Of a stretch of DNA of 64,000 nucleotides, positions 19,217-26,443 are shown one piece after another. Each line of letters starts with the position of its first letter. Positions within the stretch are counted from its first letter, which is position 1. The notes under the pieces were generated by a model. It searched no databases. It was not told the DNA's origin and worked only from the letters and a program-made list of their open reading frames with translations. The stretch comes from the human T2T-CHM13v2.0 reference genome, Homo sapiens. Location: assembly GCF_009914755.1 (NCBI RefSeq), contig NC_060935.1; one strand, 5' to 3'. A program made the translations under genes and the position numbers.

Positions 19217-19248
19217 ATGGGAAACCGGGTCTGCTGCGGAGGAAGCTG
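19217..19248 (+). CDS. C11orf52: C11orf52 coding exon 1 (MGNRVCCGGS W)
   Basis: Kozak gccATGG; donor CTG|GTGAGT; joins exons 2-4 in frame. Confidence 0.92.
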
Positions 19249-19436
19249 GTGAGTAGGCTGGAAGGGCAAAGGGGAACATCTATCTCTGTTGGTGGATGTA
19301 GAGGCCCCGAAAATCAGAGGACCTGGAGATAGTTGTCTGCCAGCCTCCCACTGCCACCTTCCTCTGCCTGGTACCTCCTTGTTCCAACACCAGAGCAGCA
19401 CCTCCTTTCAGGAGGCCTTAGAAGACAGAGCCAAGT

Positions 19437-22400
19437 GGCTGGGCGCGGTGGCTCACGCCTCTACTCCCAGCACTTTGGGAGGCCGAGGCCGGCGGATCAC
19501 GAGGTCAGTAGATCGAGACCATCCTAGCCAACATGGTGAAACCCCGTCTCTACTGAAAATACAAAAATTAGCTGGGCATGGTGGCGCGCACCTGTAGTCC
19601 CAGCTACTCGGGAGGCTGAGGCAGGAGAATCGCTTGAATCCGGAAGGCGGAGGTTGCAGTGAGCCGAGATCGCGCCACTGCACTCCAGCCTGGCAACAGA
19701 GCGAGACTGTCTCAACAACAACAACAACAAAAAAAAACAGAGCCAAGCTAGCTGTCTGCGGAATGGCCAGAGCAGGGCAGGAATATTGAACCGGCATTGT
19801 TTTTCTGTGCCCTCTTCCTCCCTTTCCCCTTCTTTCCCTTTCTTCCTGGATGAGAGTAATAATTGTAGCACTTGAGAGCTTTCTATGTGCCAGACATTTT
19901 ACAGTCTCATTTAATTTTTCCAATACTTTATGAGGTAAATGGTTTTGCCCCTCCTCCTATTTTACAGTCAGCTGAGAAACTGAGGCTCAGAGAAATTAAC
20001 TAACTTGCCTAAGGTCACATGGCTGGTAAGCAAGTAAACCAAGATTCCAACTGAGGCCCACCTGACTTCAGAGGCCACCTTTTGAACCACTGCATAATAT
20101 TGCCTCTTAGATCAAGCAAGTCAACTTTGAAGCAATGTTTATTTAAAAGGGCAGAAGTGCCAGGCGTGGTGGCTCACGCCTGTAATCCCAGAACTTTGGG
20201 AGGCCGAGGCGGGTGGATCACGAGGTCAGGAGATCGAGACCATCCTGGCTAACACGGTGAAACCCCATCTCTACTGAAAATACAAAAAATTAGCCGGGCG
20301 TGGTGGTGGGTGCCTGTAGTCCCAGCTACTCGGGAGGCTGAGTCAGGAGAATCCCTTGAACCCAGGAGACGGAGCTTGCAGTGAGCCGAGATTGCACCAC
20401 TGCACTCCACCCTGGGTGACAGAGCAAGACTCCGTCTCAAAAATAAAATAAAATAAAATAGAATAAAATAAAATAAAATAAATTAAAGGGCAGAAGTGGT
20501 CGGATGCAGTGACTCACACCTGTAATCCTAGCACTTTGGGAGGCTGAGGCAGGCAGATGACTTGAGGCCAGGAGTTCAAGACCAGCCTGGCCAACATGGC
20601 AAAACACCATCTCTACTAAAAATACAAAAAAATTAGCCAGGCATGGTGGCACACGCCTGTAATCTGAGCTACTTGAGAAGCTAAGGCACGAGAATCCCTT
20701 AAGCTTGGGAGACAGAGGTTGCAGTGAGCTGAGATTGCGCCACTGCAGTCCAGACTGGGCAACAGAGCGAGACTATGTCTTGAAAAAAAAAAAGAAAAGG
20801 AGTTTGAGACCAGCCTGGGCAACATAGGGTGGCCCCATCTCTACAAAAAAATTAAAAATTAGCTAGGCGTGGTGGTGCGTGCTTGTAATCCCAGGTACTT
20901 GGGAGGCTGAGGCAGGAGGATCACCTGAGCCCTGGGGGTAGAGGCTGCAGTGAACCATGATCACACCACTGCACTCCAGTGTGGGTGACAGAATGAGACC
21001 CTGTCTCAAAAATGAAAATAAAAATAAAAGGGCAGAAGTAGGAAAAAGAAGAATATCCATGGAATATCTGAATATGACTTTCACACTTATTTACTATGTG
21101 ACCATAGGTAATAAGTCCCTTAATTTCTCTGTATCCATCCTCACATGTAAAATGTAGATAATACATCCTACATTGTGTAGATCACAGGCTTATTTTGAAG
21201 AGCAAAGGATATAGCGTATGTGAAAACCTCATAATAAATTATCTGTGGGGTTGTTACTATTCTTTCCCAGAATTTTCATCACTGCCATGCCGTAAATTCC
21301 TGGTCCTGGTTTTATTCTGTCTACTGCCTTCCATGCCTGGGGCAGATCTGGAAGATGTCATGTTATAAATAAAGCATCATTATATTTAGATAGACAAGTG
21401 AAGTGCATTGGAAAACACACAGGTTTTGGAGTAGTACATTGGATTCAAGTCCTGCCCTACTACTCATTCATTTATCCATTCATTTATTAAACAGTGTTTA
21501 TTGAACATGTACTACAGGCACAGTGATAGACACAGAAGACATAGTAATAAAAGGACATTTGGTCCCTGCCTTGTTGAGTAAGAAATACCCTGAAGGTCCA
21601 ACATTTGGTAACTGTCTAAATACATGGCATATCCAATTAATGGGAAATACGTAGCCACTTCATAAAGAATGTTGGAAGAACACCTAACATCATGGAAAAT
21701 TTTACTCTTTATTAAGTTAGTAAAAAAGGCCCTTCATTAACCCGTCTGTAAAATGGGAACAAAAATATGTGTTTCCTGGAATGTCAGGATTGAAAAAATA
21801 AAGCACCCTTTAAACTCTGAGGTGCCCTATAGACATAGGACATCTAGAAGCACAGAAAAGCTTCTAGAGAAGGAGATGTAACAGCTTCTTTTATTCTCTT
21901 TCTTCCCAAGTGTTGGTATTCTTTTTTCATTACTGATTAGTTCTCTGATGGTGATAGTCATTAGTGGTCAACTTTTACTCATGCTTATTATATGCTAGGA
22001 ACCATGCTAAGTATTTTACATTTCCTGTTTTATTTAATCCTTACAATAATCCCATGAGGTCTGAATTATATTATCATACTCATTTTTTTTTTTTGAAACA
22101 GAGTTTTGCTTTATCTCCCAGTATGGAGTGCAGTGGCACAATCTTGGCTCGCTGCAACCTTAGCCTCCCAGGTGTAAGCGATTCTCATGCCTCAGTCTCC
22201 CTAGTAGCTGGCATTACAGGTGCGTGCCACCACGCCCAGCTAATTTTTGTATTTTTAGCAGAGACGGGGTTTCACCTGTTGGCCAGGCTGGTCTTGAACT
22301 CCTGACCTCAAATGATCCACTCACCTTGGCTTCCCAAAGTGTTGGCATTACAGGCGTGAGCCACCGCACCTGGCCTATCATACCTCATTTTATTAATAAG

Positions 22401-25896: not shown

Positions 25897-25958
25897 GAAG
25901 CCAAACAAGACGGACACTGAAGCCGCAGCCACAACAGCTGCAGCAGAATCTCCCAAAG
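25897..25958 (+). CDS. C11orf52: C11orf52 coding exon 3 (SQTRRTLKPQPQQLQQNLPK)
   Basis: Acceptor ttcttcccctcAG, donor AAG|GTAATG; 62 nt, ends phase 0. Confidence 0.92.
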
Positions 25959-26203
25959 GTAATGACAGGTCTCTGTCCCCTCTCTGGGGCTGCTCGGACA
26001 TGGGATCCCAGTAGTCAGCTCTTTTGCACTGCAACAGACACATTTCAGTCACCTGTAGAATTTGCTGGCTCTGTCTGTCCTCCTCTGTCTGTCCTTTGCT
26101 CAAAGGAGCAAAGCGAAGGGACATCAGTTGACCTGCCCCTGCATTGGAGGTGAGGGGCAAAACCAAGCCATGAATCTCCCTTAATGCTATCCATTCCTCG
26201 CAG

Positions 26204-26443
26204 GGCCATGAAACAACAGGACATACGTATGAACGGGTGTTACAGCAGCAAGGGTCTCAAGAGAGGAGTCCAGGCCTCATGTCGGAAGACAGCAACTTAC
26301 ATTATGCTGACATTCAAGTGTGCAGCCGTCCCCATGCCCGGGAAGTGAAACACGTGCATTTAGAAAACGCTACAGAGTATGCGACCCTTCGCTTCCCCCA
26401 GGCCACACCTCGCTATGACAGCAAGAACGGGACCCTGGTGTGA
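26204..26443 (+). CDS. C11orf52: C11orf52 coding exon 4 (GHETTGHTYERV...LHYADI...TEYATL...KNGTLV*)
   Basis: Acceptor ccattcctcgcAG; 240 nt to TGA; spliced CDS 372 nt = 123 aa. Confidence 0.93.
   Translation, partial: GHETTGHTYERVLQQQGSQERSPGLMSEDSNLHYADIQVCSRPHAREVKHVHLENATEYATLRFPQATPRYDSKNGTLV

What the first reader, a model, noticed from the sequence alone, without database searches (positions are those of the whole stretch)
19217..26443. C11orf52 looks like a lipid-anchored, ectodomain-less ITIM/ITSM adaptor with a PDZ tail
Seen: the spliced 123-aa protein has no TM or folded domain. It starts MGNRVCC (Gly2; Cys6/7/13; KKKK at 19-22), carries LHYADI (Y78, 26297-26314) and TEYATL (Y103, 26372-26389), and ends -GTLV. 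Established: Gly2 plus nearby Cys plus a polybasic patch is the Src-family-type myristoyl/palmitoyl membrane anchor. LHYxxL-like and TEYxx(I/L/V) are the ITIM/ITSM pair of CD33 (LHYASL), SIRPalpha (TEYASI) and PD-1 (TEYATI), and PD-1's two tyrosines are also 25 residues apart. T-x-V-COOH is a class I PDZ ligand. Inference: a free-standing inhibitory-receptor tail that Src-family kinases or RTKs phosphorylate to recruit SHP2/SHP1 tandem SH2 domains to PDZ scaffolds at junctions. I know the gene only as uncharacterised and cannot check for recent work.
Basis: partly seen in the sequence, partly recalled or inferred. Interest (0 to 1): 0.85.

Follow-up and report, generated by a model that had tools for sequence, protein, structure and literature searches.

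The report
Lipid-anchored SHP2-docking adaptor C11orf52
C11orf52 is a small, unstructured epithelial protein, conserved from sharks to humans, that looks built to sit on the inner face of the membrane and, once two tyrosines are phosphorylated, to dock the phosphatase SHP2; published phosphoproteomic data fit this, but direct binding has not been shown.

Summary
C11orf52 belongs to one TM-less family, Pfam DUF4578, found from sharks to mammals. Gly2, both tyrosine motifs and the C-terminal Val are strongly conserved. Motif columns average 0.89 identity against 0.44 elsewhere. Both motifs occur in 310 of 321 family proteins, 23-29 residues apart in 309 of 310. AlphaFold2 predicts disorder.

pY78 and pY103 are recurrent phosphosites. 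In MDA-MB-468 cells both rise after EGF, and the authors tabulate them among "SHP2-protected" multisite pY sites beside GAB1, GAB2 and MPZL1. The conserved His at -1 of Y78 and Phe at +5 of Y103 match SHP2 N-SH2 hallmarks. The tail peptide binds Scrib PDZ3 with Kd 26.5 uM.

Not shown: lipidation, direct SH2 binding, any SHP1 role, an inhibitory output. The PD-1-like 25-residue spacing belongs to a minority of sequences including the human one; 28 is typical.

It is a new member of the SHP2-docking adaptor kind. Part is already in print: the phosphosites, a supplementary table, and (recalled, not seen) an AP-MS paper naming PTPN11.

The parts
19157..19248 (+). Exon 1. The 5' UTR and codons 1-10 plus 2 nt (CDS from 19217). 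Encodes MGNRVCCGGS, the predicted N-myristoyl (Gly2) and S-palmitoyl (Cys6, Cys7) anchor. Start context AGCGCCATGG.
   Evidence: G2 is kept in 142/142 orthologues, N3 in 90%, C7 in 74%, C6 in 47%. A PROSITE-type N-myristoylation pattern is met by 142 of 161 MG-start family proteins.
19161..19184 (+). Short upstream ORF (MHKPLDA, then stop), 4 nt inside the annotated transcript start and in a different frame from the main ORF.
   Evidence: In other mammals, predicted isoforms begin MHKPL... and read on in this other frame.
24570..24607 (+). Exon 2, residues 11-23: W11, C13 and the polybasic KKKK (24592-24603), a second membrane-binding signal.
   Evidence: W11 is kept in 82%, C13 in 68%, K20 in 87%.
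25897..25958 (+). Exon 3, residues 24-44: a poorly conserved Q/P-rich linker whose length varies between mammals.
   Evidence: AlphaFold2 pLDDT is below 50 for residues 22-47.
26204..26443 (+). Coding part of exon 4, residues 45-123 plus stop. It holds all four tyrosines and the PDZ-type end, and on its own matches Pfam DUF4578.
   Evidence: Pfam E-value 8.8e-43.
26222..26239 (+). HTYERV (Y53). Corresponds to the Y-D-x-V motif of non-mammalian orthologues.
   Evidence: Y53 is kept in 84% and V56 in 90%. It is not invariant within mammals.
26297..26314 (+). LHYADI (Y78). An ITIM-type motif with L/I/V at -2, His at -1 and Ile at +3. A documented phosphosite.
   Evidence: Y78 is kept in 100%, A79 in 99%, H77 in 89%, I81 in 92%.
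26372..26395 (+). TEYATLRF (Y103). An ITSM-type motif with Phe at +5. A documented phosphosite that is sensitive to SHP099.
   Evidence: T101, Y103 and A104 are kept in 100% and F108 in 96%.
26408..26443 (+). PRYDSKNGTLV plus stop. A conserved C-terminal block with Y115 and the class I PDZ-type end T-L-V (GTLV at 26429-26440).
   Evidence: 255 of 321 family proteins end in TLV. The peptide RYDSKNGTLV binds mouse Scrib PDZ3 with Kd 26.5 uM and does not bind PDZ1 or PDZ2. AlphaFold2 pLDDT is 76-85 here.

Best explanation
C11orf52 (Pfam DUF4578) is a 123-residue, intrinsically disordered docking protein of epithelial cells made only of short linear motifs. Inferred: Gly2 is N-myristoylated, and nearby Cys (tetrapods, sharks) or a polybasic stretch (frogs, teleosts) supplies the second membrane signal, so the protein hangs from the inner leaflet of the plasma membrane. 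Shown in print: Y78 and Y103 are phosphorylated in tissues and cell lines and rise after EGF. Inferred, with indirect experimental support: the two phosphotyrosines, 23-29 residues apart, act as a bidentate ligand for the tandem SH2 domains of SHP2 (PTPN11). This holds SHP2 open at the membrane, and bound SHP2 in turn shields the two sites from dephosphorylation. Shown in vitro for one domain only: the T-L-V end binds a PDZ domain (Scrib PDZ3), which would place the complex at basolateral or junctional scaffolds. Whether the net effect on RTK and Src-family signalling is positive (as for GAB1, MPZL1, FRS2) or negative (as for PD-1) is open.
For: Sequence and conservation. All motifs are present. 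The family spans sharks, a ray, gar, teleosts, lungfish, amphibians, reptiles, birds and mammals. No TM-like segment occurs in 317 of 321 members. In 142 N-terminally intact orthologues, G2, Y78, T101, Y103 and A104 are kept in 100%, H77 in 89%, F108 in 96% and V123 in 89%. Motif columns average 0.89 identity against 0.44 for the rest. That set was chosen partly by the motifs themselves; the unselected count is 310 of 321 with both. Y-Y spacing is 23-29 in 309 of 310. The second membrane signal switches between Cys and polybasic across lineages while Gly2 stays. Disorder: mean pLDDT 55.5. Chance.

Phosphorylation. pY103 and pY78 are among the 20 sites most different between lung tumour and normal lung, with tumour/normal ratios of 0.13 and 0.09 (PMC2777383, table passage). 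A pY peptide falls on H. pylori infection. pY78 was seen in MCF-10A cells.

Link to SHP2. In MDA-MB-468 cells (PMC8024022, supplement files 20-22 and 33), pY103 reads 9.1, 16.4, 16.8 and 5.2 at 0, 5, 10 and 30 min of EGF, against 4.3, 10.5, 8.2 and 3.5 with SHP099. Five minutes after washout it reads 13.0. The SHP099/control fold change is 0.67 (p 0.020), 0.60 (p 0.15) and 0.58 (p 0.019). For pY78 it is 0.91, 0.81 and 0.77 (p 0.31, 0.026, 0.045). [quoted passage not shown] The twofold fall of pY103 before EGF matches that of MPZL1.

Motif fit. The SHP2 N-SH2 hallmarks are I/L/V at -2, His at -1, a hydrophobic residue at +3, and Phe or His at +5 (PMC11287265, passage).

PDZ binding. Epithelial expression.
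Against: I saw no direct binding data for any SH2 domain. A fall in pY after SHP099 is, in the authors' words, the most frequent change in that data set. The same table also lists AHNAK, CTNND1, EGFR, CAV1 and FLOT1, so an indirect effect through weaker EGFR or Src-family signalling is possible. The pY103 effect at 10 min is not significant (p 0.15), and pY78 changes by 25% at most. C11orf52 is not in the six pY cluster lists of that paper (files 9-11 and 17-19). It does not appear in the SHP2 N-SH2 peptide-display supplements (0 hits in 6 files) or in the HeLa myristoylome supplements (0 hits in 6 files). Either absence may reflect lack of expression or the make-up of the library. Human Y103 has Leu at +3, whereas the strict ITSM consensus has Val or Ile. 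Scrib PDZ3 bound 38 of the 56 peptides tested and 26.5 uM is weak, so that result is not specific. The teleost sequences I read lack T-x-V.
Confidence: 0.6

Rival explanations
1. A Csk-recruiting, PAG/Cbp-like adaptor. The phosphorylated Y-A-x-[ILV] motifs bind the SH2 domain of CSK, or of Src-family kinases themselves. This brings CSK to lipid-anchored Src-family kinases in epithelial membranes, while the C-terminal PDZ ligand ties the complex to a cortical scaffold, as PAG is tied to EBP50.
For: The architecture runs parallel to PAG, which is palmitoylated at the membrane, has many tyrosines, binds CSK through pY317 and binds the EBP50 PDZ domain through its C-terminal VTRL (PMC4861716, passages). 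Non-mammalian orthologues carry an extra P-V-Y-A-[TV]-V motif. From memory, that motif resembles the Y-[AS]-[ST]-V Csk sites of transmembrane adaptors. C11orf52 and NHERF1/EBP50 both fall in urinary vesicles from bladder cancer patients, which may be coincidence.
Against: Mammals have lost the motif that best fits CSK. The conserved His at -1 and Phe at +5 point to SHP2 rather than CSK. The SHP099 sensitivity is not predicted by this model. I saw no data on CSK binding.
Confidence: 0.13
2. A general phosphotyrosine hub, or a bystander substrate. The membrane-tethered, disordered protein is phosphorylated by active RTKs and Src-family kinases simply because it is nearby, and it binds several SH2 proteins weakly with no dedicated SHP2 role. 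On this view SHP099 lowers its pY indirectly, by damping upstream kinase activity.
For: Many sites fall with SHP099, including sites on proteins not known to bind SHP2. Non-mammalian orthologues have four different Tyr motifs, one of them Y-D-x-V, which from memory is the NCK SH2 type. pY78 was unchanged in the CSF-1R Y561 comparison.
Against: A bystander would not keep the flanking residues at -2, -1, +1, +3 and +5, nor the 23-29 residue spacing, across jawed vertebrates. pY103 is already halved by SHP099 before EGF is added, as for MPZL1 and unlike the AHNAK, EGFR and CTNND1 sites I compared.
Confidence: 0.17
3. The main role does not depend on phosphotyrosine. The protein would be a lipid-anchored junction, desmosome or vesicle component that acts through DSG1/JUP and Wnt signalling, or as extracellular-vesicle cargo, with its tyrosines playing a minor part.
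For: An AP-MS study reported 79 candidate partners and proposed a Wnt link through DSG1. I know it only through the sentence citing it (PMC10298883, passage); the paper itself is not held. The protein is found repeatedly in urinary vesicles.
Against: The most conserved residues of the family are the tyrosine motifs themselves, while the rest of the chain averages 0.44 identity. Dual acylation alone can explain sorting into vesicles (established knowledge).
Confidence: 0.1

Closest known systems
PD-1 cytoplasmic tail (ITIM Y223 plus ITSM Y248)
   Same: An ITIM-type tyrosine is followed about 25 residues later by T-E-Y-A-T-[IL]-x-F. From memory, PD-1's ITSM has this same extended form; one search confirms only that pTyr223 is the PD-1 ITIM and that PD-1's ITSM binds the SHP2 SH2 domains (a reference title). 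Both tails are disordered and are read by the SHP2 SH2 domains.
   Different: PD-1 is a type I receptor with an Ig ectodomain and a TM helix, it is lymphoid, and it has no PDZ end. C11orf52 has no TM or ectodomain in any lineage and is epithelial. No sequence homology was detected: the profile search of 1.84 billion proteins returned 47 hits, none longer than 354 residues, and all 30 sequences I read carry the family's own motifs.
MPZL1 / PZR (Y241, Y263)
   Same: An epithelial or adherent-cell SHP2 docking protein with two ITIM-type tyrosines 22 residues apart. In the same experiment its sites behave like C11orf52 pY103: they are already phosphorylated before EGF and are halved by SHP099.
   Different: MPZL1 is a transmembrane Ig protein with a ligand-binding ectodomain, and SHP2 binding to it is established. 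For C11orf52 the binding is inferred.
FRS2 / SNT docking proteins
   Same: These are N-myristoylated, membrane-tethered docking proteins whose phosphotyrosines recruit SHP2 downstream of RTKs (recalled, established knowledge).
   Different: FRS2 has a folded PTB domain that binds receptors, is about 500 residues long, also recruits GRB2, and has no PDZ end. C11orf52 has no folded domain.
PAG/Cbp and other transmembrane adaptor proteins (LAT, NTAL, SCIMP, LST1/A)
   Same: These have little or no ectodomain, are palmitoylated at the membrane and carry a string of tyrosine motifs. PAG also ends in a PDZ ligand (VTRL) that binds EBP50. From memory, LST1/A recruits SHP1 and SHP2 through ITIMs.
   Different: All of them cross the membrane with a TM helix and are mainly haematopoietic, and PAG's key partner is CSK. 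C11orf52 would be held by lipids alone.

Membership tests
Pfam PF15147 (DUF4578, C11orf52 family) | Match to the family profile above the curated cut-off (27 bits) | tested here: met
   The translation of the window's exon 4 scores 146.4 bits (E 8.8e-43). The monkey orthologue P0001 scores 218.9 bits over residues 1-123.
ITIM/ITSM inhibitory immunoreceptors | ITIM consensus [S/I/V/L]-x-Y-x-x-[I/V/L] | tested here: met
   The human motif is LHYADI. Position -2 is L, I, V or (once) M in the 236 family proteins tallied.
ITIM/ITSM inhibitory immunoreceptors | ITSM consensus T-x-Y-x-x-[V/I] | tested here: inconclusive
   Thr at -2 and the Tyr are invariant, but +3 is Leu in human and in 73% of 142 orthologues. 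It is Ile in the shark and teleost sequences I read. Leu lies outside the strict consensus.
ITIM/ITSM inhibitory immunoreceptors | Transmembrane receptor with a ligand-binding ectodomain | tested here: not met
   The highest KD19 value is -0.2 in human. Only 4 of 321 family proteins have any hydrophobic 19-mer, and each lies at an extreme end of an odd gene model.
ITIM/ITSM inhibitory immunoreceptors | Motif tyrosines are phosphorylated in cells | tested here: met
   From published data I read: pY78 and pY103.
ITIM/ITSM inhibitory immunoreceptors | Phospho-dependent recruitment of SHP1, SHP2 or SHIP | tested here: inconclusive
   The support is indirect: both sites fall with the SHP2 inhibitor and are listed as 'SHP2-protected'. 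I saw no binding assay and nothing on SHP1 or SHIP.
ITIM/ITSM inhibitory immunoreceptors | Inhibitory effect on an activating pathway | not testable with these tools
   I found no functional data in searches.
Dually acylated (SH4-type) membrane anchors | Met-Gly start fitting the N-myristoyltransferase pattern G-{EDRKHPFYW}-x-x-[STAGCN]-{P} | tested here: met
   Human GNRVCC fits. 142 of 161 MG-start family proteins fit, and Gly2 is kept in 142 of 142.
Dually acylated (SH4-type) membrane anchors | A second membrane signal: palmitoylatable Cys or a polybasic stretch next to the myristate | tested here: met
   120 of 161 have at least one Cys in residues 3-15. Of the 41 without, 34 have at least 6 Lys/Arg in residues 8-35; the other 7 look like truncated or wrong models.
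Dually acylated (SH4-type) membrane anchors | Experimentally shown myristoylation or palmitoylation | tested here: inconclusive
   There are 0 occurrences in the 6 supplementary files of the HeLa myristoylome study. No paper in the library pairs C11orf52 with myristoylation of this protein. Palmitoyl-proteome data were not checked.
Class I PDZ ligands | C-terminal [S/T]-x-hydrophobic-COOH | tested here: met
   The human end is T-L-V. 257 of 321 family proteins have such an end; the teleost sequences I read do not.
Class I PDZ ligands | Measured binding to a PDZ domain | tested here: met
   Published fluorescence polarisation: Kd 26.5 +/- 2.4 uM for mouse Scrib PDZ3 and no binding to PDZ1 or PDZ2. 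PDZ3 bound 38 of the 56 peptides tested. In-cell relevance has not been tested.
Transmembrane adaptor proteins (PAG, LAT, LST1/A) | A single TM helix with juxtamembrane palmitoylation | tested here: not met
   There is no TM segment. The resemblance is functional only.
FRS2-type docking proteins | A PTB domain after the myristoylated N-terminus | tested here: not met
   Pfam finds only DUF4578, AlphaFold2 predicts no fold, and there is no PDB relative at E up to 10.

The most novel reading that the evidence does not exclude
C11orf52 is an ancient, jawed-vertebrate-wide 'receptor-less checkpoint'. It would be a lipid-anchored, domain-free bisphosphotyrosine module that opens SHP2 at PDZ-scaffolded epithelial junctions without any ligand-binding part. 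Local kinase activity alone would then set SHP2 tone, and loss of its phosphorylation, as in lung tumours, would rewire RTK, Src-family and junction signalling. It would be the first SHP2 activator made only of lipids plus short linear motifs.
Probability: 0.3. Interest if true: 0.7.

Novelty: new member of a known kind. Interest (0 to 1): 0.55.

Why it matters
SHP2 is a central node of RTK-RAS signalling and a drug target, and where it docks decides what it does. A 123-residue epithelial protein that offers it a conserved two-tyrosine site at the membrane would add a docking partner beside GAB1/2, FRS2 and MPZL1. It would also give a function to one of the remaining unnamed human proteins. 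pY78 and pY103 are among the tyrosine sites most depleted in lung tumours relative to normal lung. They also respond to an SHP2 inhibitor, so they could report SHP2 engagement in epithelia. The hypothesis is cheap to test with peptides, point mutants and existing inhibitors.

Tried and rejected

2. The one paper devoted to the protein (Yang et al. 2021, J Proteome Res 20:5340) is not held. I saw only a sentence citing it. I recall that its abstract names DSG1, JUP and PTPN11 as validated partners at cell-cell junctions, but I could not confirm this. PTPN11 does not occur in the main text of the citing paper, and the passages from its supplement that mention C11orf52 do not list it.

3. The SH2 interaction landscape paper (Tinti 2013) is not held.

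4. The SHP2 N-SH2 peptide-display supplements hold no C11orf52, no accession and neither motif string (6 files).

5. The HeLa myristoylome supplements hold no occurrence (6 files).

6. A six-term literature search with min_terms 2 returned 5,212 papers, and none of the 30 listed held C11orf52, so it gave nothing usable.

7. Searches for the mouse alias, the old alias and the names of orthologues and of the family found only expression lists and the CSF-1R table.

8. There is no PDB relative of the exon 4 protein at E up to 10 and no Rfam family in 18500-27500.

9. I asked whether the family derives from a receptor tail. The profile search of 1.84 billion representatives gave 47 hits, none longer than 354 residues, and all 30 sequences I read carry the family's own motifs. 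Only 4 of 321 family proteins have a hydrophobic stretch. I found no support and dropped the idea.

10. I did not send a complex-prediction job. The partners (human SHP2, Scrib) are not available to that tool, and phosphotyrosine would not be modelled.

11. I did not run a fold search, because the model is too low in confidence to give meaningful matches.

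
Full report
**Observation.** I joined the four annotated coding parts of C11orf52: 19217-19248, 24570-24607, 25897-25958 and 26204-26443. They give 372 nt and a 123-residue protein, with AG acceptors before exons 2-4 and GT donors after exons 1-3.
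- The protein starts MGNRVCC, with Cys at 6, 7 and 13 (and also at 84).
- KKKK lies at residues 19-22 (24592-24603).
- LHYADI lies at 26297-26314 (Y78) and TEYATL at 26372-26389 (Y103).
- The protein ends in GTLV followed by the stop.

The exons are modular. Exon 1 encodes the acylation motif, exon 2 the W-x-C and polybasic patch, exon 3 a variable Q/P-rich linker, and exon 4 all four tyrosines and the tail. The highest 19-residue hydropathy mean is -0.2. AlphaFold2, run on a 92%-identical monkey orthologue with 58 aligned sequences, gives mean pLDDT 55.5 and pTM 0.16, with one six-residue helix. "No TM, no fold" therefore holds.

In 200,000 composition-preserving shuffles:
- An ITIM-type and an ITSM-type motif occur together in 0.34%.
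- They occur together 20-32 residues apart in 0.058%.
- Those plus a class I PDZ-type end occur in 0.0015%.
- Those plus an N-myristoylation-type start occur in none.

**Family and conservation.** The exon 4 protein finds 108 mammalian proteins, all carrying Pfam PF15147 (DUF4578). A profile of 58 mammalian sequences, scored against 1.84 billion representative proteins, finds 47 proteins at E up to 0.001, none longer than 354 residues; all 30 sequences I read carry the family's own motifs. Two further profile searches gave names. Orthologues occur in squamates, turtles, crocodiles, birds, caecilians, frogs, salamanders, lungfish, gar, teleosts (named zgc:193711), sharks and a ray (315 hits, best 120 listed; 104 hits). 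I saw no jawless-vertebrate or invertebrate member and no human paralogue. Only 4 of the 321 stored family proteins have a hydrophobic 19-mer, always at the extreme end of an odd gene model. The family therefore lacks a TM throughout.

Of the 321 proteins, 310 carry both the [x-x-Y-A/S-D/E-I/V]-type and the T-x-Y-A/S-type motif. Eight of the 11 exceptions were inspected. Seven look truncated or run into unrelated sequence, and one is a record marked low quality with a one-residue deletion in the second motif. P0298 and P0305 were not inspected. The distance between the two tyrosines is 23-29 in 309 of 310. It is 28 in 253 and 25 in only 8, including the human protein, because of a three-residue deletion seen in the monkey orthologue. 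The PD-1-like figure of 25 is thus a minority state, but the spacing as such is constrained.

In an alignment of the human protein with 142 N-terminally intact orthologues:
- G2, Y78, T101, Y103 and A104 are kept in 100%, and A79 in 99%.
- F108 is kept in 96%, I81 in 92%, H77 in 89% and V123 in 89%.
- The motif columns average 0.89 identity against 0.44 for all other columns.

That set was picked with regular expressions that include parts of the motifs, so the 100% values are partly circular. The unselected 310 of 321 is the fair number.

**Membrane anchor.** Human G-N-R-V-C-C fits the PROSITE-type N-myristoylation pattern, as do 142 of 161 family proteins that start with MG. The second signal changes with lineage while Gly2 stays:
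- Cys follows close by in mammals, sauropsids, caecilians, lungfish and sharks.
- Xenopus, gar and the teleosts I read have no Cys but a dense Lys/Arg stretch.
- Of the 41 MG-start proteins without Cys in residues 3-15, 34 have at least 6 Lys/Arg in residues 8-35.

Swapping palmitoylatable Cys for a polybasic patch is what the two-signal model of myristoyl anchoring predicts (established knowledge). I take it as good evolutionary evidence for membrane tethering. It remains inference. The protein is absent from the supplements of a HeLa myristoylome study, and I found no paper that reports its lipidation.

**Phosphorylation.** The two tyrosines are well-documented phosphosites:
- In a reanalysis of lung tissue phosphotyrosine data, pY103 and pY78 rank 4th and 16th among sites differing between tumour and normal lung. 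Tumour/normal ratios are 0.13 and 0.09 (PMC2777383, table passage).
- A C11orf52 pY peptide falls at both time points of H. pylori infection (passage).
- pY78, under the old name MGC14839, was seen in MCF-10A cells expressing CSF-1R, unchanged between wild-type and Y561F receptor and so classed as Src-independent there (table passage).
- A phospho-Thr peptide from the linker occurs in urinary vesicles.

The protein itself is found in urinary vesicles with 7 peptides. Its mRNA tracks the epithelial phenotype across the NCI-60 lines (r = 0.77). It belongs to a KRAS-dependency and epithelial signature. It stains endometrial gland cells.

**Link to SHP2.** The strongest evidence lies in the supplements of Vemulapalli et al. 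2021 (eLife, PMC8024022). I read main-text passages and files 20-22 and 33, with hits also in file 35. MDA-MB-468 cells were stimulated with EGF, with or without the allosteric SHP2 inhibitor SHP099, which keeps the SH2 domains from engaging ligands.

| Site | DMSO 0/5/10/30 min | SHP099 0/5/10/30 min | Washout 5/10/30 min |
|---|---|---|---|
| pY103 | 9.1, 16.4, 16.8, 5.2 | 4.3, 10.5, 8.2, 3.5 | 13.0, 9.5, 3.4 |
| pY78 | 6.6, 11.8, 10.6, 9.0 | 7.9, 9.1, 7.2, 7.5 | 8.8, 9.4, 12.1 |

Across the two replicates, the SHP099/control ratio for pY103 is 0.67 (p 0.020), 0.60 (p 0.15) and 0.58 (p 0.019) at 5, 10 and 30 min. For pY78 it is 0.91, 0.81 and 0.77 (p 0.31, 0.026, 0.045). [quoted passage not shown] The twofold loss of pY103 before any EGF mirrors MPZL1 (12.9 to 6.3 and 14.6 to 6.6) and differs from the AHNAK, EGFR and CTNND1 sites I compared in the table. 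The conserved flanks also fit. A peptide-display study lists the SHP2 N-SH2 hallmarks as Ile/Leu/Val at -2, His at -1, a hydrophobic residue at +3, and Phe or His at +5 (PMC11287265, passage). Y78 has L, H and I at -2, -1 and +3, and Y103 has Phe at +5.

**Evidence against the SHP2 reading:**
- Falling pY is the commonest response to SHP099 in that study, and the same table holds proteins not known to bind SHP2. An indirect effect cannot be excluded.
- The changes are modest, and one of the three pY103 time points is not significant.
- C11orf52 is missing from the paper's six cluster lists.
- It is missing from the N-SH2 display supplements.
- I saw no binding experiment of any kind.
- I recall that the abstract of Yang et al. 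2021 names PTPN11, with DSG1 and JUP, as a partner confirmed by co-localisation at cell-cell junctions. The paper is not held, and the paper that cites it mentions only DSG1, Wnt and 79 candidates. This is memory, not evidence.

**PDZ end.** T-L-V is a class I PDZ-type end. The peptide RYDSKNGTLV was measured by fluorescence polarisation against the three mouse Scrib PDZ domains tested. Kd was 26.5 uM for PDZ3, with no binding to PDZ1 or PDZ2 (PMC3189207, whole section read). PDZ3 bound 38 of 56 peptides, so this shows competence rather than a partner. Of 321 family proteins, 255 end in TLV. Gar and sharks keep it, but the teleost sequences I read end in forms such as V-M-V or I-M-A. The last 20 residues are the best-predicted part of the model, at pLDDT 76-85.

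**Mechanism and comparison.** The best reading is a lipid-tethered, disordered docking protein whose two phosphotyrosines engage the tandem SH2 domains of SHP2, with a PDZ ligand for placement. I give this a confidence of about 0.6.

It works like the PD-1 tail, MPZL1, FRS2 and the transmembrane adaptors (PAG, LST1/A), but it is a member of none of them. It has no TM or ectodomain (tested, not met), no PTB domain (tested, not met) and no detectable homology to them. PAG is the nearest in layout: palmitoylated, many tyrosines, and a PDZ end that binds EBP50.

The rivals are:
- a Csk-recruiting, PAG-like role (0.13);
- a non-specific phosphotyrosine hub with an indirect SHP099 effect (0.17);
- a role that does not depend on the tyrosines (0.10).

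**Non-mammalian orthologues.** These carry two more tyrosine motifs upstream, Y-D-x-V and P-x-Y-A-x-V, 9 or 10 residues apart in all 159 proteins scored for both motifs (9 in 147). Mammals have lost the second. The ancestral protein was probably a broader SH2 hub.

**Novelty.** My searches were C11orf52 alone and with myristoyl, SH2 or tyrosine; its aliases; its motif strings; and its orthologue and family names. They searched main texts only, and the first listed 30 of 50 papers. No paper in them describes the protein as a lipid-anchored ITIM/ITSM or SHP2-docking adaptor. The phosphosites, the PDZ measurement and the "SHP2-protected" listing are public, however, and a PTPN11 interaction may already be published. 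I therefore rate it a new member of a known kind, of moderate interest, and directly testable.

Noticed in passing
window 19161-19184 (+): A seven-codon upstream ORF (MHKPLDA, then stop) starts 4 nt after the annotated transcript start, in a different frame from the main ORF. In many other mammals, predicted isoforms begin MHKPL(Y/S)VEKQLGS...RAPWETGSA, meaning the stop is absent there and exon 1 is read in this other frame. Whether such isoforms are real or artefacts of gene prediction is unknown.
   Followed up: partly
orthologues P0117, P0135-P0138, P0141, P0255-P0262 and others; human equivalent 26222-26239: Non-mammalian orthologues carry two further tyrosine motifs upstream of the pair: Y-D-x-V and P-x-Y-A-x-V, 9 or 10 residues apart in all 159 proteins scored for both motifs (9 in 147). 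Mammals keep a weakened form of the first (HTYERV) and have lost the second. From memory, these resemble NCK-type and CSK-type SH2 motifs.
   Followed up: partly
window 26315-26371 (between the two motifs): The human protein and the colobus orthologue have a three-residue deletion between the two tyrosines, giving a spacing of 25 instead of the usual 28. Eight of 310 family proteins have 25 and 253 have 28.
   Followed up: partly
teleost orthologues P0276, P0284, P0288, P0290, P0306: Teleost zgc:193711 proteins lack Cys near the N-terminus. They share a W-G-[IL]-N-P-R-K-L stretch and an extra conserved P-A-D-I-[LF]-I-P-P-G motif after the second tyrosine, and they end in V-M-V or I-M-A type tails rather than T-L-V.
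   Followed up: no
P0267, P0279 (Narcine bancroftii): Two ray gene models named as isoforms of cilia- and flagella-associated protein 68 carry the DUF4578 sequence. CFAP68 is the upstream neighbour of this locus in human according to the hub's annotation. This may reflect old synteny, or gene models that were fused.
   Followed up: no
window 25897-25958 (exon 3): The linker encoded by exon 3 is a Gln-rich stretch whose length varies widely among mammals. It is the least confident part of the structure model.
   Followed up: no
literature, PMC10296596: C11orf52 and the PDZ scaffold NHERF1 (EBP50) are both reported as lower in urinary vesicles of bladder cancer patients. This may be coincidence, but NHERF1 is a candidate PDZ partner worth testing.
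   Followed up: no
window 23947-23984 (-), inside intron 1 of C11orf52: According to the hub's annotation, an alternative first exon of CRYAB on the opposite strand lies inside this gene's first intron, and an HSPB2-C11orf52 readthrough transcript shares exons 2-4. I did not examine either. No Rfam family was found in 18500-27500.
   Followed up: no
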